A DNA stretch of 64,000 nucleotides from Paecilomyces variotii (taxonomy: Eukaryota). A model generated the notes under the pieces. It did no database searches. It had not been told where the DNA came from and saw nothing but the letters and a program-made list of their open reading frames with translations. The stretch's first letter is position 1, and each line of letters begins with the position of its first letter. The DNA lies in NCBI GenBank assembly GCA_004022145.1, contig RCNU01000004.1; one strand, given 5' to 3'. Positions 62-52,291 of this stretch are shown here, one piece after another. The translations under genes were made by a program, and so were the position numbers.

Positions 62-2592
62 TCATCGATATCGGAAAGACTTATGTGCCAGGGGTGACGT
101 CGGCGCATGGGCCGTCCCAGCTAACGGGTCTCGCAGTCGGCCTCCCCTCATGGGGGTTTGTGAGCAGTAGACACAGATGTACACAGGAGGCAGGTTTGCT
201 CGCTCCAAGCCCACACATTTAGTGTGCAGCCAGTGATTGCAGGACTCGCTGGAATAAGTTAGCCTATGCACTAGATTTTATGGGTGTCCTTCGCAGGGCG
301 TACCATTGGATCATGAGATGTCCACCGTTGTCCATCGAGTTACATATACATCTGGTGCTATTGCTGGGATTGCTTTGCCTGTCGGTGCTTGGCGTCGCAA
401 TATCGGGGTCGGTGACGGTCGTCGGCGAGTTACCTGAATCGGCAATGTTGAGATCCAGTCGTGCTCCGAAATGGGGAGGAGACGAACGGAGATGTGCAAT
501 GGTATTGGATGTCCGTGTGAGGCCAGAAGGGTATCCGACGACAGAATTCCTTGATCTATTTCTTCCTTTGAGGACTTGCCTCAGTGCGTGCTGTGCATCT
601 CCGTCATCTTCATTCTGGTCTGGAAGGCTGTCCGACGTGGCAGATGTACCACGAGAGAAATCAGCATTGACAGGCATCGACAATCTTCGTGGTGTTTGAG
701 CAGCCCAATCCTCCAACGACGGTCGTGGAGCTCGCCTTAAACCCCTAGAAGAATTGGCCCAAGGCGACTGCCGTCCGGAATGCGAGACTGTCGCACTAGA
801 ATATGATGATCCCTTTGAATGAGGTCTTGAAGTAGAACTAGCCCGGCTGAGTTTCGACTTCGAATCCGAGAATAGACTGTGGCTGATGGGGTATTCAGCG
901 GATTCGCATTCGCTCTCTGTGGCAGAGCCGTCAAGGTCCATTCCGCTCAGAGGATCGGTTAGACCCGTTGAGGATTCATCAACCACCTGCATCTCAGTCT
1001 TTGCCCTCCCATCCTTCCCAATCTTCAGGACAAGCGACTGGGAGCGAGTTGGAAGGGTGGCGGAGTTAGCACGAGGCAGACTTTGGCGCAGGGACTTGAC
1101 TGGTGAGGTGCGTCCTTTTGATGGCGTCTTTCGAATCCCGGTGGTCGATGCCAACACTCCTGACGACATCTGGTTCTGTTGCCTGTTATGGCTTGAGACT
1201 GCGGTGTGGGTTAAGCTCCTGGTCAGTCCCGGTCGGACACCACTAGGTGTCCAGTCATCGTCCTCCTCATCTGAGAACGATCCAGGCATCCGCAGGCTTC
1301 TAGAGCGATGCAGTTCTTCCCTCTTGGATTCTTCAGTCTGGTGGTGATAAGGCTGGCGTTGCGATTCCCGTTGTACAGATCTCGGATCCACCCTAGTTTG
1401 TAGATGTCCAAAACGTCGAGCCGGGGAGCTCAGAAACATGGCAGGGTCTTCGGCTTTGGTAACGGGAACACGGGGAGATGTGGAAAACGGTGCTGGGAAC
1501 AATGCTGCGTCTGCGGTAGTCGTCCCTCTGAGGCCAAAGCTGGTGTCTCCGAACTCAGGCAGGTCGAGTGAGCCTTGGATCGTGGGTAACTGAGGAATTT
1601 GCTGATCGTGTGAGACTGTATTGCTTGGACCGAATGCTGCCCCCGTAGTAGGACCGAATATGTCATTGCTACTCCCCGGCAATCCGATGCTTTCTCCCTG
1701 GTTTTCAGACTCTTGGTCCCAGAAGAGTTTGTGCTGAGGAAAGAAGGGAGAAGCCGACTGGTCGATCGAGGCAAATTGAAACAGGTCAGGAGAACCCTGG
1801 ATATTCGAGAATAGTTGAGGGGACGCTCCGATCAGCCGACTGGGTGTCTCTAGATGACTACCTCCCATGCTGACAGTAGAGAGCTTTCTTGAACTGTTCT
1901 GAAAGGCCTGGGCCGTCCCATTATTGTCATACTCCGTACCCTTCCTCCTCGAAGTACTGGTTGGCGGCGGCGTCTGCATCGAAGCGGCGGACTTCGCCGA
2001 CTCGACAGTCCCGGGACCCTCCTCGTTACCCCATATGTCCGGCTTTGAAGAAAGACGCAGTCTTCGTGCAGTTCCTGTGCCTTCTGACGCCCTCGCTCTC
2101 TCCGAACCTGGAGCTATGTGTTCGCTAGTCGACCCAAAATCCCGATTCGTATCTCGCTCAGAGAATCCGCTCTGAGCCTTCAATTGGTTCGAAGGTGTGC
2201 TCAATCCAAATCTCTGGGGTGTCTTGAATAGTTCCGGGCTCGAGGCATACGGGTCGGATGTGTCCCAGGTCACACGAGGATCGTAGAAACTGGACTCGAG
2301 TTTGGGCGTTTGGAAGGCAGAATCACCGAAGCTGGTGAACCTGGGTGTCCGCGTCGGTGTCTGAGGTTCACCATTCGGATAGTTGAAGCTGAACATATTT
2401 GCAAGCTTCGTTAGTATCATCTTGCAGAGGTAAAACAAGGAGTGAGGAGGTAGGAGAATGGAAAGACTGGCCAGGAGGATGGCGACAGTTCAGACTGTCC
2501 CCGCCAGGTCAAAGAAGGGACAGGACAAAGGGCCTGCGGAGTCAAGCACTTAGATACCGAACATACCTGTGAACCGGACGATCCCAATTCAT
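62..2592 (-). CDS. PHD-finger domain protein (long S/P/T-rich disordered N-terminus, C-terminal PHD finger); 3 exons
   Basis: Short exon 1 (ATG 2592, MNWDRPVH) ends at a GTATGT donor (~2566). The acceptor ctaac...ttcag (~2390) joins [12 protein letters not shown] second intron (~250-303) joins [16 protein letters not shown] to [13 protein letters not shown]...YICVYC, a C4HC3 PHD pattern. Confidence 0.85.
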
Positions 2593-10934: not shown

Positions 10935-11095
10935 AGTGGAAGGACTCAAGATCAGCTTCTTTCTGGACTGGTAATACTGTAGGAGATACACTCACCTTCT
11001 ATGAAGAGTTGTGGCTGCAGGCACATACAAGACTGGTTTTTGTAGGTAAAGGATGAGTCGCCTCCTGTTATAAGTAGTCTGTTCAAAGAGATCTG
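10935..11095 (-). repeat. Copy A of a ~160-bp inverted duplication (partner 19083-19241)
   Basis: Its reverse complement aligns to 19083-19241 with 11 substitutions and 2 one-base gaps by manual alignment (~92% identity). Confidence 0.95.
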
Positions 11096-15116: not shown

Positions 15117-16019
15117 ATGAGCATCGCTTCGAACAATATATCATTCTTCTTTCTCTTCGTTGCTGCTGTGCAGGCACACATGCAACTCTACTGGCCACCT
15201 CCGTTCGCTGCAGAGAACAACCCTCATCGCACTGACGCCGCTGACCCCTATCTTACCTATCCCTACAACTGCTGCGGAAAGACTACACCGTTTCCCTGCA
15301 AAGGATATCTTAAGCTGGTCGGAACCCCTCAAGGAGCACCAGTCGTGACTTGGACTACAGGCTCATCAGTGAATTTCAGCTTGACTGGACTTGGTAACCA
15401 CTACGGCGGTTCGTGTCAGGTTGGCTTCAGCGTCGACAACGGCACGACTTGGAAAGTTGCAAAAAGTTTCGAAGGAGATTGTCCTCATCGTAACGGTGGT
15501 GTCGATCCTGCTAAACAGACTTTCAACTTCACAGTCCCGGCTGACATGCCCACTGGGAACCACATCTTTGCCTGGACATGGTTCAATCGCGAACAGGAAT
15601 TCTCGATGCTCTGTTCTTCAGTGAATATTGTCGGCGGCTCGAAACATGTCACTCCTTTACTGGCTTCTCGGACGTCGACAGCGTCCCCAACGGCAACATC
15701 ATCAAGCTATGTTAATTATAACGGCTGTACATGCCAATGTCCAGCAGTATCTGGTCCTTTATCTATCAGAAACAATGACTATATCCATTCTTCTTCTAAG
15801 GAGCTAGAATGGAACAATAAATCGAACGCCAGTGCTTCGCCCGGTCACATCGCATTCCATGATCGGCCTAGTTTCTTGTTCGCGGATATCGATAATGGTT
15901 GCGAGACTCCCAAAACTACTGCTGAGGTGAAATACCCAAATCCTGGCCCTGATATTCAGCCCGGAGATGGTGTCTACCCTCTAGCACTTCCATCTCCTGG
16001 GCAAAAGTGCGGTTATTGA
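15117..16019 (+). CDS. Secreted lytic polysaccharide monooxygenase-like protein, AA11 family
   Basis: A 20-aa signal peptide ending VQA is followed by His1 (HMQLYWPPP). Further motifs are NHYGGSCQ (second brace His), FAWTWFNR and C-terminal NGC...YPNPGPD. Intronless. Confidence 0.8.
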   Translation: MSIASNNISFFFLFVAAVQAHMQLYWPPPFAAENNPHRTDAADPYLTYPYNCCGKTTPFPCKGYLKLVGTPQGAPVVTWTTGSSVNFSLTGLGNHYGGSCQVGFSVDNGTTWKVAKSFEGDCPHRNGGVDPAKQTFNFTVPADMPTGNHIFAWTWFNREQEFSMLCSSVNIVGGSKHVTPLLASRTSTASPTATSSSYVNYNGCTCQCPAVSGPLSIRNNDYIHSSSKELEWNNKSNASASPGHIAFHDRPSFLFADIDNGCETPKTTAEVKYPNPGPDIQPGDGVYPLALPSPGQKCGY

Positions 16020-16606: not shown

Positions 16607-17419
16607 TCATAATGCAGTATGCGCTTCACACAAAAATCCTTCCTTTTTGAGCCTATTATAGATCATGCCAAGAAGTAAGCTTCGGAACTCGCTTGAATCG
16701 CTCGAATAGGTGATCCTTGTTGGGAATGGGCGGCTCTGATCCTCATCCACGTCCTCAAAGTCAAATATATATATGCTGAACCAATCGAATAAGGCGATGT
16801 CCTTGCATTCCTCAGCGTAATTCTTGACTTGCCGGGATAATTTCAGCGCATTGTCTTCAAGAAGTGAACAATGCATTGTCCGTGACCCCTCCGCGATAAC
16901 CGCGGCAGCACCGGCCAGGCCGGTAATTATGGGTTTCCAATCATCAAGTCGCAGGACTTTAATGCTTTTATACTCAAGAACGGCCACGGCGGTTTCCTTT
17001 CCTCCTCTTCGGCAATACCACTTAAGATCCATGCGAGCCTTCCCCTTCTGCGAAACCACCTCGGACTGGCAACGAAGCATCACTCCTGCTGAGAGTATGC
17101 CAGATAGAATAACATTAACAGGGTGGATAAGCTGTAATGCTGAAACTCGCAGAACGTCACTCTCCGTGTGAAGATAATGACTCGTCTCATGCTGTGACAT
17201 CGGGCGTTGAAGGCGTTCGGGAATCGACGGCGTAGCCTGGAGGGCCTCTCTCGCGCTTTCCAAGAGAATAACGGGATCCTTCTCAGTGAGGACACGGATA
17301 GCATCCTTGATCTTCGTTGACGTCGCCTCCGATGTTATTTTATTGTAGTCTAGATCGTCGGAGTCAACGGGCGGCAGTGGCTTTGAGAAAGACTCGTAGA
17401 TAGTCATGACCCGCTCCAT
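16607..17419 (-). CDS. Hypothetical protein with PD-(D/E)xK (restriction-endonuclease-like) fold motifs
   Basis: 270-aa intronless ORF with HTESDV (helix Glu), ARMDLKW (Asp), VAVLEYK (ExK, codons 16967-16975) and a downstream RQVKNYA (QxxxY) motif. Confidence 0.65.
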   Translation of the reverse strand: MERVMTIYESFSKPLPPVDSDDLDYNKITSEATSTKIKDAIRVLTEKDPVILLESAREALQATPSIPERLQRPMSQHETSHYLHTESDVLRVSALQLIHPVNVILSGILSAGVMLRCQSEVVSQKGKARMDLKWYCRRGGKETAVAVLEYKSIKVLRLDDWKPIITGLAGAAAVIAEGSRTMHCSLLEDNALKLSRQVKNYAEECKDIALFDWFSIYIFDFEDVDEDQSRPFPTRITYSSDSSEFRSLLLGMIYNRLKKEGFLCEAHTAL

Positions 17420-17755
17420 GATCGATGTTGGACAAATTATATAGAGGACAGCAGCAAGGGGGGCTGGGGAGAGCAGGTTTGGAATTTATTCTGAAGACGT
17501 ATAGAGATCTTAGTTTGCGCTTAGGTAGCGGTTTGCAAGGCAGAATGGGAGCATGAGAATATGAGATAGGAGAGAATGCAGTTTTCGGGGGATGTTTATT
17601 CTCCTCTGCTGCATTCATGTTGTAGATAATGCCAAAGTTGGCTAACACAGAAAGAAAGACCGCAGACGGCAGGAATAACCTCGTTGCTAACGATAAGGCA
17701 GGAACTTGTGGCAAAACAGCGACCTATTTGGTTCTGGACAGTGAGTTTAACTAAT

Positions 17756-18826
17756 CTAATACAGACCCTCATCGTCCCGCTTCATGTTCCGTCTTTCGAA
17801 AATAAAATCTGAGAGCCACTGTGACTTCATATATGGTGTGACGGAGGATGCTGTATGCGCATATTCAGCCCGAAGCCAAGGCTGGTAATCCCAGTCAACC
17901 CAGTCGGAGAAGCTGTTTACCATCCTCCATACCTTATGCCAGCGAAGCAAAGGAGATATATAGGTCCCAGGTAATAGTTTCTGCTCTTCCTCAGGGATCC
18001 CAAGCCAGTGTCGAGATAATATATTAGTTCCAAAGTCCAAGAGGATGACCCTTTTGATTCTGTTTTCTTTGGAGTTAGGGTCCTGCTCCACCATCACATT
18101 TCTTGGGTGTAGGTCACTAAGCCGCACATCGCGGGTATAAATGGCGGACTCTCCATCGATAATTTGTTTGATAATTTGCTTCCGTTGCAGCTGAGAGAAA
18201 TCCCGTGGTCGAAGCTCGCGCATTGAAAACCCAGAAATGTACTCAATCATAATGAGCCGAACTGTACGTGTCTTAGAGGATGGCTCATCCACGGGAAGTT
18301 CAAGAGAGTACGAGCCATAGTAAGCTGGTATCACCGTGCCTTGGAGGTCAGAGAGCCTAGCATATGAGGCTGCTTCGCGCGAATAATGGCACTTAACACA
18401 GAGGAAAGGGTCCGTGTCATCATCGCTGTGGTCAAAATAGAGAGGATCATATAGCTTGGCAACTGCTGTAGTGACGCCCTGAAGGGTTTTGGGACAATCA
18501 GGGCTGGTATTAAGAATGTTAACAGCAACAATTTGGGCACTGTGGTCTTCTCCCGCCCGGATTTCATGGGATACCTCGAAAGTGACCATAGAGTCGCCGT
18601 CTGAGCCACCCACAGGAGGGTGCAAAATGCAACGCTGAAGTGGGGGAACCGTTCGACGTTCAATGTCCGCTTCCTTTGTTAGGCTACAGGACTCTGTGAT
18701 GGGCGCTGGGGCCGGTGGGTTCTGCGAGCGGACCGTAAAGCGATGGCCCTTGACATAGGGAACTGGAGGCGGTGGATTTGCCTCAAACGCAAAGTCTCCG
18801 TCTTGGATAGTATTTGAAATTAGCAT
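17756..18826 (-). CDS. Fungal atypical protein-kinase-like (PKL fold) protein
   Basis: 356-aa intronless ORF with VAKLYDPLY (subdomain II Lys), REAASYARL (helix C Glu), LQGTVIPAYYG, LIMIEYISG, SDLHPRN (catalytic loop) and LLDFG. Confidence 0.85.
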   Translation of the reverse strand: MLISNTIQDGDFAFEANPPPPVPYVKGHRFTVRSQNPPAPAPITESCSLTKEADIERRTVPPLQRCILHPPVGGSDGDSMVTFEVSHEIRAGEDHSAQIVAVNILNTSPDCPKTLQGVTTAVAKLYDPLYFDHSDDDTDPFLCVKCHYSREAASYARLSDLQGTVIPAYYGSYSLELPVDEPSSKTRTVRLIMIEYISGFSMRELRPRDFSQLQRKQIIKQIIDGESAIYTRDVRLSDLHPRNVMVEQDPNSKENRIKRVILLDFGTNILSRHWLGIPEEEQKLLPGTYISPLLRWHKVWRMVNSFSDWVDWDYQPWLRAEYAHTASSVTPYMKSQWLSDFIFERRNMKRDDEGLY

Positions 18827-19082: not shown

Positions 19083-19241
19083 CAGATCTCTTTGAACAGG
19101 CTGCTTATAACAGGCGGCGACTCATCCTTTACCTACAAAAACCAGTCTTTTATGGCCTGCAGCCACAGCTCTTCATAGAAGGTGAGTGTGTCTCCTACAG
19201 TATTCCCGATCCGGAAAGAAGTTGATCTGAGTCCTTCCACT
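19083..19241 (+). repeat. Copy B of the ~160-bp inverted duplication (partner 10935-11095)
   Basis: The sequence cagatctctttgaacag...gagtccttccact matches the reverse complement of 10935-11095. It ends 12 bp from the stop codon of the adjacent Zn2Cys6 gene. Confidence 0.95.
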
Positions 19242-40237: not shown

Positions 40238-42649
40238 CTAGAGAAAATGGGTGTAGACTTTCGACGTCTCATGGACTTCCATCTCCTGAAGATCTCGTTA
40301 GCTCCGACCCGGTGTGCACGGAGGTGTTGACGTACCATCTTGAAGGTATTGAGCTCCTCCTTGATTTGCTGCGCAAGGAGGGGAGTCAACCTGTTGCAGG
40401 TAGCAATATCACCCCGTCGATCGTATTCCCCGCTAGGCCAGGTCTCGTGAAACTGGATACGGGGGCTGAATACGATATTCTTCGAGACCGATTGCGGTGT
40501 GATTGGGGCGCTCTTCGAATCAGGTCCCCCAAACCTGCCTACCGAAAGGAAGTAATCCTCGCCCTCAATCTTCACGGCATCAGCCCGTCTTTGCCCAGCC
40601 CCAGAAGCACGATCTTCAGGAGTGCTGGGGGCGCTGGAGTGTGGAGAGTCGTTCGAACGAGCAGCACTAGACTCCGCTGGCCTTAAGGCCGGGGACGAGT
40701 TCCCAGAATCGGTGCCAGTTCCTATCATCTATTAGTTCGAGGGTTCCATGAACCGACCAGGGTCTCTGAGTGACTTACTCTTAAGGATGCCCTTTCGAAC
40801 AGCCGCGAGAACTTCAGCACGCTCCTTCTCTCCTCCCATAATGCTTTTACGCGATGCTTCACGGAGAGACCCGGTTCTCGAGGTGTCTGTGCTAGCTCCG
40901 TCCGAAGTAGCGAAGACGCCACCATGTCCGTGTGTATCTGGGTTGAAGCCCGTGCCCTTCTTGTCAGCTTCGATGTTCACTATCGACACCTTCGGGGCCA
41001 TTGGCTCCACGGCGATCGGATCTGCAGAGGCATTCACGAGAGACTTGGGCCGAAAAAGCCCAACGAGAGACCGGGTAGAACGCTTCATCCCTTTGCCCAT
41101 CTTGCGGAGCATGATAGATGCAGAAGAAGCGGTCGAGGAGATAGACAAATTGTCCGTAGACCCCGCGAAATGCGAGTAGATACTCTCTCCAAGTCCGCTA
41201 GCCTCTTGTCTCTCTGCGATTTCAGCCTGTTCAGCGCCCAGTTCTTCACTAAGCTGCTGTCTACGGGTCTTCTCAACTTCCCCATCTCTCCTGCCGAGGC
41301 TCTGTTGAGCAGAAACACGTCGCAGCTCGGACGCACTTCCGAAAGAAAATGCCCTCCTTAGACGAGATTTTCCAGACTTCTTTTGCTCATTTTTGGTGAT
41401 GTCTGCCAGCCGTTGAGCTGCAGAACCTTCAGCGGGTTTCGTCTCCTTCTCCTCCTTAGCTGGTGAAGTCGACTTTGACGCATCGGCTACAGGGCTCATT
41501 GTGACCGGATTGGACAATGGAGAAGGGTTGGCCGGCCGTTTGGAGATTTCTGGGGTACGGTGTCCGTTCTCCTCGTTGGCCGATGAAGCCCGTGTGCTGC
41601 TAGCATCGCGTGGAGCCTTGAAATCAACGTCAGCGAAAAAATGACACTGGCGTATGAATCCCCAAGGAACTTACCGAGTGATTCGACCGCGTCGAATGTA
41701 TGCTGTCTGTGCTACCGTTGGCCGAGTGAGATGACCGTGACGAGGGCCGCTCTTCCCTTGAACGAGCACCGGACATGTTGATCAGTGTATTCTCTGGCGA
41801 AGGTGTCTCGCCTCTTAGACCGGCAACTCCAGCGGTGTCGATGGTCGCCCAACTTCTGCGTCTATATCGCTTTGCGAGTTCAGGCTGCTGTAGTCTCTCG
41901 GATCGTGTATCGTCCGCACTGGAAACACGTACGTGGCCACCAGCGCTACGGTCCGGAGACAGGAAAGGCCGCTGCACGCTCGAGGTTGACGAAGCATTCC
42001 CTTGTGTTGTTGAATCAGGTGTGGACACACGACCTACTGGCCCCGACGTCGCGAGAACACCAGCCGAATTGTGAGCCGCAGTCGAGTTATCAGCCCGTCT
42101 GTTCCCACGACGGTAACGGTCGGGGGACGGCTTGGGTGCAAGAACGGGAGAAGAGATGTTCATGAAGGACGATGAAGGGATATTGACGGTCGACAGCGGA
42201 CGCGGAGATAGGTCACCTGCTTGGCGTCTTGAAGGGATGGCAGTGTCGTCTTTGGACATGTAGGATCCAGATGAAGAGGTGGATGCGGTGGATACAGAAC
42301 CAGCTGCTGAGTTGTGCATACTTCCATTGAATGAGAAACTGCCCGACCCTTGAGGAACTGAAGTAGCAGATGACGACCTGCTGTCCAGCCTCGGTTGAGG
42401 CGCCCATGACTGACGGTTCTGGGGGTTTCCGGGCGTAGCTGTAAAGGCATAGGGGGCTACAGGAGCCATTGCCTGATGACCCCTGTGGTTCGTCGAGGTA
42501 CCCATCGTATGGGACACTGATTGACTCCGGGGACTCTGTTGATGGGACGTCTGGGACGGAGACGCGAAGGAACCCGATGAGGAGGAAGGGCGAGTCTGAA
42601 GCATCGTCACTGTCCCCGTCTGTGGAATCGTCTGGACAATGGCAGCCAT
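40238..42649 (-). CDS. BNI4: Bni4-like protein (septin/chitin synthase scaffold, PP1-targeting); ~4 exons
   Basis: Motifs LRRAFSFGS, SIMLRKMGKGMKRSTRSLVGLFRPKS and AAVRKGILK, plus the conserved C-terminus VFSPRIQFHETWPSGEYDRRGDIATCNRLTPLLAQQIKEELNTFKMEMEVHETSKVYTHFL. Confidence 0.82.
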
Positions 42650-51019: not shown

Positions 51020-52291
51020 ATGTGCCAACTCACAGTGAACTGGCATATCTGTAGCCACCTCGTCCCTCAGAAGGAGACTTGTCAATTCGACAGCCTTTCT
51101 GAACACAAACCGCGTGAGAGTACAGCCATATTTGATGAATCTCTCTGTTGGCTATGCGAACAATCCCCGTCGGAGTTCATCAATGCTATGGTTACTACTC
51201 AACTGACGGCACAGGATGTCATCAATGCACTGGGTGTATCTGAAAACCATCCAAACCTGATGACCATCATTGGAAAATATTTTGACAGATATGAGAATGG
51301 ACATATGTCTAATATGAGGTTCAGATTCGATAGGGTTCTGGATGGTTTGGATATGCCACGGCCTGAAGGTCACGAGCAGAATCTGAACGCGCAATTGAAT
51401 GCTCTTTCGGCGTTGGCTGCTGTCAACAATGCGCATACTTCCGCGAATATGCAGTCTCTTTCTCAGCTTCAAGCCCAGGGACTGGGTGCATCAATCGCGG
51501 GAAACCAGAGCAATATGGCAATCACTAGTATGTCGATGCCAAATGGTGGAAATGTCTCCAGTGATCAACAAGATACTGTTAATCCCGCACACATGACTGT
51601 GGGAAATACCACCGCAGAGCTCCTCGACTTGGACGACATGTTCCCGACGTTGGATGACCACCAGTCACTGATCACTATGGAGCATCTGGAGTCGCTGCAG
51701 GCGCACAGAGACATGGATATTTCCGACACAGAAAGCAGCGATAGTGAGGATTCTGTGGGAACTCCCGGTGTTGAAAACACTGTGAGACAATCTACTCCTG
51801 CGAATGCGGCTACCAAGGCAGAAACTAATCGCAGGATGACTAGTAAGATCTCGGGAAATAAACAGCCGTCGCCAGCGAGAACTGAATTTCATGAGCATGT
51901 GTTCGAATTAGACCGTGTCATGTCTGAAGACCAAAACATTACCTCTCAAACGCAATCCAACATTTCATATCCGTTGTACACTCAGAACACTCAAATCGAT
52001 CATCTGACATCTGCTGAACATCGTGAATTTTCGAGCTCCAATCTACACCATCTGACCGTCATTAATGCTTTGAATCATCAGCTGGAAACTCAAGGTCCGA
52101 GCTACGAACTTGTACAGGCTTTGTCGAAGGAAGTGTCTGAAGGTGCGCAGGAAATGCAGGTGATAGGGGAACGATGGCATCGATTGTCTGATGCTGTGAT
52201 GAGGAACATCAGTCGCTACACTGCATCACAACTTCCAGAGCCTAATACGGGAGAAGGAATCTTACCCTACGCTTCTACCCCCTCAGACTGA
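51020..52291 (+). CDS. Hypothetical protein (~423 aa) with an N-terminal Cys/His putative zinc-binding motif
   Basis: ATG at 51020 starts MCQLTVNWHICSH...C...CWLC. The remainder is low-complexity N/Q/S/T-rich with a helical C-terminus. Intronless. Confidence 0.7.
   Translation: MCQLTVNWHICSHLVPQKETCQFDSLSEHKPRESTAIFDESLCWLCEQSPSEFINAMVTTQLTAQDVINALGVSENHPNLMTIIGKYFDRYENGHMSNMRFRFDRVLDGLDMPRPEGHEQNLNAQLNALSALAAVNNAHTSANMQSLSQLQAQGLGASIAGNQSNMAITSMSMPNGGNVSSDQQDTVNPAHMTVGNTTAELLDLDDMFPTLDDHQSLITMEHLESLQAHRDMDISDTESSDSEDSVGTPGVENTVRQSTPANAATKAETNRRMTSKISGNKQPSPARTEFHEHVFELDRVMSEDQNITSQTQSNISYPLYTQNTQIDHLTSAEHREFSSSNLHHLTVINALNHQLETQGPSYELVQALSKEVSEGAQEMQVIGERWHRLSDAVMRNISRYTASQLPEPNTGEGILPYASTPSD

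What the first reader, a model, noticed from the sequence alone, without database searches (positions are those of the whole stretch)
16607..18826. Tandem intronless kinase + PD-(D/E)xK nuclease pair: candidate split Spok/Crinkler-like toxin-antidote module
Seen: two co-oriented intronless ORFs lie ~335 bp apart, flanked by AT-rich tracts and close to one end of an inverted duplication. The upstream ORF is a PKL-fold kinase with intact K, E, D..N and DFG residues. The downstream ORF has E, D, ExK and QxxxY motifs in nuclease order. Known: Podospora Spok meiotic drivers fuse a PD-(D/E)xK nuclease (killing) to a kinase domain (resistance), and Crinkler-type effectors also combine REase and kinase domains. 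Inference: these may be the same two activities encoded as separate genes, forming a two-gene poison/antidote, selfish or non-self-defence cassette in which the kinase neutralises the nuclease.
Basis: partly seen in the sequence, partly recalled or inferred. Interest (0 to 1): 0.78.

Follow-up and report, generated by a model that had tools for sequence, protein, structure and literature searches.

The report
Widespread fungal kinase-nuclease gene pair
Two neighbouring genes of a mould, a DNA-cutting enzyme and a protein kinase, recur side by side in many distantly related fungi and probably form an undescribed two-gene poison-and-antidote (or cell-death defence) unit built from the same two activities that the Spok spore killers carry in one protein.

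Summary
In detail: a 356-aa kinase (17756-18826, -) and a 270-aa protein (16607-17419, -) lie 336 bp apart in a Paecilomyces variotii-like genome. The 270-aa protein models confidently as an HsdR/type IIG-like PD-(D/E)xK nuclease (best Z 9.2), with E86, D131, E149-x-K151 and Q197xxxY201 kept in 93-97 of 100 relatives. The pair is a conserved unit. It has adjacent locus tags in four Onygenales genera. Also, 19 of 42 distinct metagenome kinase loci (24-48% identity) carry the nuclease within 4 kb, in all four orientations. Kinase-only loci are common and nuclease alleles decay while the kinase stays intact, as expected if the nuclease is the poison. Against a Spok-like reading: the proteins were never found fused, the Spok cysteine cluster is absent, the pair is nearly fixed in P. 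variotii in a housekeeping neighbourhood, and at one locus of relatives a 91-93% identical kinase sits beside nucleases only 36% alike. The AT-rich flanks and the 161-bp inverted repeat look incidental. Best reading (0.5): nuclease toxin restrained by a broad-specificity kinase. Main rival (0.3): kinase-gated non-self or defence cell death. Toxicity, rescue and spore killing are untested.

The parts
17756..18826 (-). Protein-kinase-like (PKL) kinase gene, 356 aa, intronless, non-RD catalytic loop; proposed antidote or regulator
   Evidence: ORF; Pfam ABC1 9e-7 and Pkinase 9e-5; AlphaFold2 pLDDT 93.1; Foldseek PknB, CurKC, Rio2 at E about 1e-6; RNA contigs
18029..18457 (-). Kinase catalytic set: K124 (18455-18457), E151 (18374-18376), D238 (18113-18115), N243 (18098-18100), DFG 264-266 (18029-18037)
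   Evidence: Translation; conservation 99-105 of 105; K/E/D/N/D intact in 31 of 31 near-full-length metagenome kinases
16607..17419 (-). Stand-alone PD-(D/E)xK (REase) nuclease gene, 270 aa, intronless; proposed toxin or effector
   Evidence: ORF; no Pfam family; AlphaFold2 pLDDT 95.5; VIA-align BpuSI Z 9.2 (rmsd 3.1, 141 aligned), DrdV Z 9.0, HsdR 3h1t Z 7.1; 492 clusters at 50% identity
16817..17164 (-). Nuclease catalytic set: E86 (17162-17164), E120 (17060-17062), D131 (17027-17029), E149-x-K151 (16967-16975), Q197xxxY201 (16817-16831)
   Evidence: Conserved in 80-97 of 100 relatives; all present in 18 of 18 near-full-length metagenome nucleases beside a kinase
17315..17320 (-). S34-T35 of the nuclease N-terminal arm: conserved Ser/Thr pair, candidate phospho-acceptor (inference only)
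   Evidence: Ser or Thr in 102 and 98 of 118 aligned nucleases
17420..17755 (-). 336-bp spacer; holds the kinase 3' UTR, with a poly(A) end near 17465, 46 nt before the nuclease ATG, and three upstream ATGs
   Evidence: T-run loose end at 17465 in RNA run X18, one contig; ATG count and GC 44.6%
19083..19241 (.). Right arm of a 161-bp inverted repeat, 256 bp upstream of the kinase ATG; lies in the transcribed 3' region of the neighbouring gene; probably a rearrangement scar, not part of the module
   Evidence: X3 contig covers 19045-19825
10935..11095 (.). Left arm of the 161-bp inverted repeat

Best explanation
A two-gene toxin-antidote module of filamentous fungi. SHOWN: one gene encodes an HsdR-like PD-(D/E)xK nuclease fold with an intact active site; the other encodes a PKL kinase with an intact active site; the two stay adjacent over large evolutionary distances in any orientation; the kinase is often found alone; both are transcribed in this species. 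INFERRED: the nuclease degrades DNA and kills a cell or spore unless the kinase restrains it by phosphorylation, as SPOK3's kinase domain restrains its nuclease domain in cis and in trans (PMC6660238). Because one kinase type serves nucleases only 36% alike, the restraint is probably through a conserved site (candidate: the S34-T35 arm of the nuclease, or a shared target), not a lock-and-key cognate interface. The module spreads as a selfish cassette (spore killing or post-segregational killing of nuclei that lose it), moves between loci and species, and once fixed the nuclease decays and orphan kinases remain. The P. variotii copy probably arrived by horizontal transfer from or via an Onygenales lineage and is now nearly fixed.
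For: Fold and catalytic conservation. Adjacent locus tags in 6 P. variotii strain annotations, Emmonsiellopsis (FQN50_009066/67), Emmonsia crescens (EMCG_05047/48), Emydomyces (PRK78_007040/41) and Uncinocarpus (UREG_02718/19). 19 of 42 distinct metagenome kinase loci, and 6 of 11 with at least 2 kb on both sides, have the nuclease within 4 kb: 11 divergent, 3 convergent, 5 tandem. Background is low: five protein searches of the 30.1-Mb own genome found one intact copy (lower bound). Kinase and nuclease identities co-vary over 19 pairs (Mantel rho 0.77, p 0.0001; shared ancestry alone can produce this). Asymmetry: syntenic loci keep the kinase and lack the nuclease (L033 vs L034, L017 vs L007); the own genome has an intact orphan kinase at C67; 5 of 24 P. 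variotii nuclease records are damaged (K151 changed and truncated at 212 in 2; altered start in 3), and for 4 of these 5 the adjacent kinase record is full length with all catalytic residues. Kinase tree places the window copy as sister to Polytolypa/Blastomyces/Emmonsia/Emmonsiellopsis (SH-aLRT 100).
Against: No experiment. The metagenome search was baited with the kinase, so it cannot show whether the nuclease occurs alone, which is the key prediction. Several nuclease records have no visible partner: no Coccidioides kinase is among the 120 listed of 169 kinase hits although its nucleases are 66-69% identical to the query; in Arachnomyces the clade-matched kinase (FQN54_002397) is on another contig than the nuclease (FQN54_000294); P. 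variotii No. 5's nuclease is annotated fused to a CMD gene. Near-fixation in P. variotii (24 vs 25 contigs) and a housekeeping neighbourhood without a transposon gene among 23 ORFs scanned give no sign of current drive. At locus L011/L012/L014/L020 the kinase does not sort with nuclease type (2 diagnostic residues against 4 and 2 for the other groupings), unlike the specific killing hierarchies of Spok genes. Long-term retention at a syntenic site (L012, L025, L027, L061) fits a host function as well as a selfish one.
Confidence: 0.5

Rival explanations
1. Kinase-gated defence or allorecognition module useful to the host. The nuclease is latent and is switched on (or released) through the kinase when non-self is met (hyphal fusion with another haplotype, mycovirus, mobile DNA), killing the cell. 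The variable nuclease is the diversified effector.
For: Idiomorph-like swaps: L012 vs L014/L020 share 87-92% nt flanks (78-87% on the far side) and 91-93% identical kinases but 36% identical nucleases in a segment that does not align at DNA level; L048 vs L061 have 98.4% identical flank but a 75-80% identical cassette. Coccidioides has two nuclease classes 73-76% alike, each 98% identical across the two species, with no listed strain in both. A HET-domain gene adjoins L033/L034. Orphan kinases are harmless under this model too. For Crinkler effectors the kinase is thought to regulate rather than block the REase (PMC5289972).
Against: P. variotii alleles are 97-99% identical, with no divergent haplogroup among those listed. 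No sensor domain in either protein. Only 1 of the distinct paired loci scanned had a HET neighbour. Orthology of the Coccidioides classes was not checked at DNA level.
Confidence: 0.3
2. Mobile cassette in which the nuclease acts as a homing or mobilising endonuclease that cuts cassette-free alleles so that the cassette is copied in; the kinase is a regulator or passenger.
For: L008 and L010 share an 88% identical 1.5-kb kinase cassette in unrelated flanks; probable horizontal transfer into P. variotii; a 124-bp, 89% identical nuclease relic elsewhere in the genome; the structural neighbours are sequence-specific restriction enzymes.
Against: No terminal repeats or target-site duplication specific to the pair; no transposase beside the pair among ORFs scanned; it does not explain why an intact kinase stays adjacent in all four orientations.
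Confidence: 0.1
3. No functional coupling: two fast-evolving genes that hitch-hike together in mobile or variable regions.
For: Kinase-only loci are common (5 of 11 with adequate flank); possible unlinked nucleases in Arachnomyces and Coccidioides.
Against: Adjacency survives inversions and re-ordering (four orientations, 17 of 19 within 1.3 kb) at 25-35% protein identity, while no third gene travels with the pair.
Confidence: 0.07
4. Reversed roles: the kinase is the toxin (HipA-like) and the nuclease-fold protein is the antidote.
For: The kinase is the more conserved partner.
Against: Intact kinases occur without any nuclease nearby, and the nuclease is the gene that decays.
Confidence: 0.03

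Closest known systems
Spok spore killers of Podospora and FuSpok of Fusarium (PMC6660238, PMC12693581, bioRxiv 10.64898/2026.10.04.756499; passages read)
   Same: HsdR-like PD-(D/E)xK nuclease with QxxxY plus an atypical PKL kinase; HsdR 3h1t is a structural neighbour of both; patchy distribution and cross-species transfer; the ESM Atlas model resembles a SPOK2_N cluster (TM 0.70/0.56, under the Atlas's bar for naming).
   Different: Two separate genes in any orientation, not one 3-domain protein; no N-terminal coiled coil and no C-x3-C-x13-C-x5-H-x7-H cluster; not seen in a Starship here; kinase order reversed and no Spok-kinase cluster among the Atlas hits; killing untested.
Crinkler/CR-RHS REase+kinase effectors (Zhang et al. 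2016, not held; seen only through PMC5289972 and PMC12693581)
   Same: REase as the toxic part with a kinase as regulator; the Atlas model resembles a Crinkler+Pkinase cluster of Mucoromycota (TM 0.63 by query).
   Different: No Crinkler header or other delivery domain (no Pfam hit); not fused; occurs in Ascomycota saprobes.
Type I HsdR and type IIG (BpuSI, DrdV) restriction nuclease domains
   Same: Fold and catalytic order; Z 9.2, 9.0, 7.1 and 6.6.
   Different: 9-13% identity; eukaryotic, stand-alone, no methyltransferase or motor; partner is a kinase.
Novel Pezizomycotina kinases PezK1/PezK2 and FunK1 (PMC3445971; passages and supplement file 3 rows)
   Same: Fast-evolving, lineage-expanded atypical kinases of similar size in Onygenales with no known function.
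   Different: Membership in PezK not tested (no sequences in hand); FunK1 Pfam model not hit; that paper's passages mention no linked nuclease.
Fungal allorecognition (het/vic) loci with linked gene pairs and highly divergent alleles (general properties recalled; PMC7849911 passage)
   Same: Linked pair, idiomorph-like allele swaps in relatives, a HET neighbour at one locus.
   Different: No HET, NLR, gasdermin or patatin domain in the pair; no divergent alleles in P. variotii itself.

Membership tests
PD-(D/E)xK (REase) superfamily | alpha-beta-beta-beta-alpha-beta core fold | tested here: met
   Model pLDDT 95.5 with H86-107, E113-122, E129-138, E141-150, H190-201, E207-211; 15 or more of the top 20 VIA-align rows are REase-fold proteins, best Z 9.2. 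Foldseek gave no match at E <= 0.001.
PD-(D/E)xK (REase) superfamily | Catalytic E...D...(D/E)xK, with QxxxY in HsdR/RecB-like members | tested here: met
   E86 97, D131 93, E149 95, K151 97, Q197 97, Y201 97 of 100
PD-(D/E)xK (REase) superfamily | Metal-dependent nuclease activity | not testable with these tools
   Needs an assay
Protein-kinase-like (PKL) superfamily | Two-lobed fold with K, alphaC E, D-x4-N and DFG | tested here: met
Spok | Nuclease and kinase in one polypeptide | tested here: not met
   Two ORFs, no splice joint between them in four runs; kinase profile hits 0 of 164 nuclease relatives and nuclease profile hits 0 of 120 kinase relatives. The word-index searches were length-limited; the 150 representatives were not.
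Spok | HsdR-like nuclease with catalytic Lys and QxxxY | tested here: met
Spok | Cysteine cluster C-x3-C-x13-C-x5-H-x7-H before the kinase | tested here: not met
   Motif absent from both proteins (motif)
Spok | N-terminal coiled coil and domain 1 | tested here: not met
   No helix over 14 residues before residue 86 in the nuclease model, none over 9 before residue 140 in the kinase model
Spok | Sequence homology to the Spok kinase family (IPR052396) or SPOK2_N (PF27653) | tested here: inconclusive
   PF27653 is not in the Pfam copy; Atlas structure row TM 0.70 under the naming bar; no Spok sequence was compared directly
Spok | Spore killing; kinase-dependent resistance | not testable with these tools
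   Needs crosses and expression tests
Spok | Often carried on Starship elements | tested here: inconclusive
   No captain-type domain among 23 window ORFs; neighbours are PUS7/TruD, RPE65, AA11, MFS, eIF2B, Spt20. Short or split ORFs were not scanned.
Crinkler (CRN/CR-RHS) effectors | N-terminal header (Ubl/LFLAK) fused to the toxin domains | tested here: not met
   No Pfam hit in the nuclease or, bar single chance-level rows, in 100 relatives
FunK1 (fungal-type protein kinase) | Match to the FunK1 Pfam model | tested here: not met
   Not among hits at E <= 0.1 for either protein, although UniRef labels several nuclease relatives 'Fungal-type protein kinase domain-containing'
PezK1/PezK2 | Clustering with the dermatophyte gene sets of PMC3445971 | not tested
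   Gene ids seen but their sequences were not obtained
het/vic allorecognition locus | Highly divergent alleles under balancing, trans-species polymorphism | tested here: inconclusive
   Pattern seen in relatives but orthology and species limits not established; not seen in P. variotii
het/vic allorecognition locus | Cell death on fusion of unlike alleles | not testable with these tools
   Needs pairing tests

The most novel reading that the evidence does not exclude
A widespread, undescribed family of two-gene selfish killers in Ascomycota in which a broad-specificity kinase antidote licenses an exchangeable, hyper-diverse nuclease toxin. It would be a natural split version of the Spok logic, moved horizontally between orders, and would explain a large set of orphan, fast-evolving fungal kinases as left-over antidotes.
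Probability: 0.35. Interest if true: 0.85.

Novelty: new variant of a known kind. Interest (0 to 1): 0.72.

Why it matters
How the Spok kinase confers resistance is stated as unknown (PMC12693581), and the single-protein design makes it hard to dissect. A natural pair of small, separate, well-folded proteins with the same two activities makes the question directly testable: what the kinase phosphorylates and how that silences the nuclease. It would also give a function to a nuclease family with at least 492 clusters and no Pfam entry, and to a class of expanded atypical kinases of Onygenales and Eurotiales. If the rival is right, it is a new kind of fungal cell-death or non-self locus.

Tried and rejected
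Complex prediction of kinase with nuclease was not available, so binding is open. Metagenome scan with the close nuclease alignment: 0 of 94 pattern matches confirmed; the deep nuclease alignment had no stretch conserved enough to scan, so no nuclease-baited census was possible. Viral contigs: 0 of 129 matches confirmed for the kinase. Sequence search of PDB with the nuclease profile: 2 chance-level rows. Foldseek: no match at E <= 0.001. Third partner: a recurring 300-350 aa gene in 8 loci proved to be a hydrophobic, proline/glutamine-tailed host gene of a syntenic block with an ABC transporter, not a travelling partner. Inverted repeat as transposon ends: rejected (161 bp, two copies, encloses housekeeping genes); the 'opposite strand' joint in X15 is explained by the repeat itself. 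RIP or foreign codon usage: none. Presence/absence in P. variotii: not supported. Cognate kinase-nuclease specificity at L011/12/14/20: not supported. The middle of the nuclease is uncovered in RNA runs X17 and X18 while the kinase is covered; contigs cannot rank expression, so no weight is given. Matching Logan contig lengths paired only 2 nuclease records with kinases (13,984 and 14,943 bp); the others are inconclusive because cluster representatives may come from different contigs. Zhang et al. 2016 could not be read and may already list this REase family. vic4 kinase of Cryphonectria as a relative (recalled lead): no sequence or description obtained. Earlier scan findings: none by sequence; word and place hits were bacterial three-gene cassettes or tRNA introns.
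Full report
1. Observation. The window is G000:C34:372001-436000 of a 30.1-Mb genome. Its proteins are 97-100% identical to Paecilomyces variotii records. Two minus-strand ORFs, 17756-18826 (356 aa) and 16607-17419 (270 aa), are 336 bp apart. In run X3, whose contigs skip two introns of the next gene, a single 2288-nt contig covers 16602-18889 without gaps; in RNA run X18 one contig ends in a poly(A)-type tail at 17465, 46 nt before the second ATG. Both genes are therefore intronless and transcribed; whether as one or two transcripts cannot be told from contigs. The flanks are mildly AT-rich (36% and 38% GC) and the genes look host-like in GC3 and dinucleotides. The inverted duplication is 161 bp at 92%, present twice in the genome, and encloses a TruD/PUS7 gene and an AA11 gene besides the pair. 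I read it as a rearrangement scar (inference).

2. The proteins. The 356-aa protein is a PKL kinase: Pfam ABC1 9e-7 and Pkinase 9e-5, model pLDDT 93.1, Foldseek neighbours PknB, CurKC and Rio2, and K124, E151, D238, N243, D264 in 99-105 of 105 relatives. The 270-aa protein has no Pfam family but heads a family of 492 clusters at 50% identity, mostly stand-alone proteins of 250-300 aa among the 150 listed; Atlas clusters are ascomycete. Its model (pLDDT 95.5) aligns best to BpuSI (Z 9.2, rmsd 3.1, 141 residues), DrdV (9.0), mitoribosomal REase-fold proteins (8.7) and V. vulnificus HsdR 3h1t (7.1). Foldseek found nothing at E <= 0.001, and Z near 8 alone is only moderate, but the fold agrees with the conserved residues: E86 97, E120 80, R129 94, D131 93, E149 95, K151 97, Q197 97 and Y201 97 of 100. 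PMC6660238 (passages) reports the same HsdR hit and QxxxY motif for SPOK3.

3. Linkage. Named genomes: consecutive locus tags in P. variotii strains DTO166G4, DTO164E3, DTO021C3, DTO207G8, DTO169E5, DTO271D3 and DTO045G8, Emmonsiellopsis PD_5 (kinase 75%, nuclease 73%), Emmonsia crescens EMCG_05047/48, Emydomyces PRK78_007040/41 (54%, 42%) and Uncinocarpus UREG_02718/19 (57%, 42%). In a second E. crescens annotation the tags are three apart (GX50_05675, 05678). Metagenomes: a scan with the kinase alignment gave 56 loci at 24-48% identity. Merged at 90% kinase identity they are 42; 19 have a nuclease-profile hit within 4 kb (17 within 1.3 kb), 11 divergent, 3 convergent, 2 kinase-then-nuclease, 3 nuclease-then-kinase. 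Of the 11 with at least 2 kb on both sides, 6 are paired and 5 are not; most other unpaired loci are short contigs. Several loci come from related samples, so they are not 42 independent events. Neighbouring Pfam domains (HET, Fungal_trans_2, SHR3, Gag1) mark these contigs as fungal. Background: five protein queries found one intact nuclease in the own genome (lower bound), and a broadened profile found only the target and one relic in 154 kb of own DNA. All 18 near-full-length metagenome nucleases and all 31 near-full-length metagenome kinases keep their catalytic residues; a few other paired nucleases are in pieces (L019, L026, L040). No fusion was found in 164 nuclease or 120 kinase relatives, and no third gene travels with the pair. 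Identities co-vary over 19 pairs (rho 0.77), which common descent alone can give.

4. Dynamics. (a) Asymmetric loss: L033 vs L034 and L017 vs L007 are syntenic, both keep the kinase, one lacks the nuclease. The own genome has an intact orphan kinase (C67), a kinase pseudogene with 13 stops (C2), a distant kinase (C3) and a 124-bp nuclease relic (C78), none with a partner in the 10-30 kb examined. (b) In P. variotii the pair is nearly fixed: 24 contigs for each gene against 25 for the AA11 neighbour; the strain with the most divergent AA11 (DTO271G3) has no nuclease member listed. Five of 24 nuclease records are damaged (2 with K151 changed and an end at residue 212, 3 with an altered start); the adjacent kinase is intact in 4 and not identifiable in the fifth. 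These are gene models, not checked on DNA. (c) Allele swaps in relatives: L012 vs L014/L020 have 88-92% identical DNA through the kinase, an unalignable nuclease segment, 81-87% identical DNA beyond, kinases 91-93% and nucleases 36% identical, and the kinases do not sort by nuclease type. L048 vs L061 share a 98.4% flank but a 75-80% cassette. Coccidioides records fall in two classes 73-76% alike, each 98% identical across species. (d) Mobility: L008 and L010 share an 88% kinase cassette in unrelated flanks. In a quick IQ-TREE tree of 62 kinases (52 of the 121 word-search kinases, the C67 paralogue and 10 of the 56 metagenome loci; the careful search did not finish) the window kinase is sister to Polytolypa, Blastomyces, Emmonsia and Emmonsiellopsis (SH-aLRT 100) inside an Onygenales-rich clade (98), away from Aspergillus and Penicillium kinases. 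It is 75-80% identical to them, while Emmonsia and Uncinocarpus kinases are 55% identical. Horizontal transfer is the simplest reading; old paralogy with losses is not excluded.

5. Mechanism. Shown: two intact enzyme folds, persistent adjacency, kinase-alone loci, nuclease-first decay, nuclease exchange. Inferred: the nuclease is the harmful partner and the kinase restrains it. By analogy with SPOK3, where K240A abolishes killing, D667A abolishes resistance and rescue works in trans, and where killing appears to be general DNA degradation (PMC12693581), I put a toxin-antidote module at 0.5, of which spore killing specifically is about half. Because the kinase is not cognate-specific, a conserved target is more likely than a specific interface; S34-T35 (Ser/Thr in 102 and 98 of 118) is a candidate. 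The main rival (0.3) is a kinase-gated non-self or defence switch, favoured by the idiomorph-like swaps and one HET neighbour. The weakest point of the best model is that nuclease-alone loci could not be counted, and there are possible cases: no Coccidioides kinase among 120 listed of 169 hits, and clade-matched genes on different contigs in Arachnomyces.

6. Comparison and novelty. It works like Spok in parts list but is not a Spok: not fused, no cysteine cluster, no coiled coil. It is not a Crinkler (no header). REase-plus-kinase coupling is known as a fused architecture (PMC5289972 passages; PMC12693581 passages). Eight full-text searches listed no paper describing a separate-gene version in fungi; the library lacks most subscription papers, and Zhang et al. 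2016 and its supplements could not be read and may catalogue the nuclease family. PMC3445971 (passages and supplement file 3) describes novel fast-evolving Onygenales kinases without a linked nuclease in the passages seen. PMC12941216, PMC7849911 and bioRxiv 10.64898/2026.10.04.756499 were seen as passages only and add nothing against this.

7. Verdict. A real, conserved, apparently undescribed two-gene conflict module; new variant of a known kind; interest 0.72.

Noticed in passing
window 15117-16019 (+): AA11 lytic polysaccharide monooxygenase gene convergent with the nuclease; strain alleles differ from the window's by 4-23 of 300 residues, more than the kinase (0-4). An AA11 gene (cwr-1) is an allorecognition gene in Neurospora (recalled); most changes here lie in the linker.
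   Followed up: partly
L006:4686-4809 (G000:C78): 124-bp, 89% identical, frameshifted relic of the nuclease core (residues 86-126) beside a methylthioadenosine phosphorylase-like ORF; also present in another strain's contigs.
   Followed up: partly
L005:4520-5563 (G000:C67): Intact orphan paralogue of the kinase (about 41-43% identity) flanked on both sides by SRPK-like kinase genes (SRPK-like motif as).
   Followed up: partly
L072:4858-5406 (G000:C2) and L073:4790-5218 (G000:C3): A kinase pseudogene with 13 in-frame stops and a distant family kinase in a 348-aa open frame; no nuclease within about 5 kb.
   Followed up: partly
protein P0089 cluster: A 317-aa family kinase annotated in about 15 contigs of other P. 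variotii strains has no close match in G000 (best 41%), so that paralogue shows presence/absence.
   Followed up: no
L074 (G000:C86:944305-944769): The CMD gene that is annotated fused to a family nuclease in P. variotii No. 5 (P0212) has no nuclease beside it in G000.
   Followed up: partly
L019, L026, L037: Loci with extra copies: two nucleases near one kinase (L019, L037) or two kinases around one broken nuclease (L026).
   Followed up: no
L033:1347-3098, L034:771-2525: HET-domain gene beside the kinase, inverted between the two loci, with the nuclease present only in L034.
   Followed up: partly
window 10935-11095 and 19083-19241: 161-bp inverted repeat bracketing an 8-kb block; possibly the scar of an inversion.
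   Followed up: partly
window 264-2420 (-), 41630-42649 (-), 51020-52291 (+): Long ORFs (718, 339, 423 aa) without any Pfam match.
   Followed up: no
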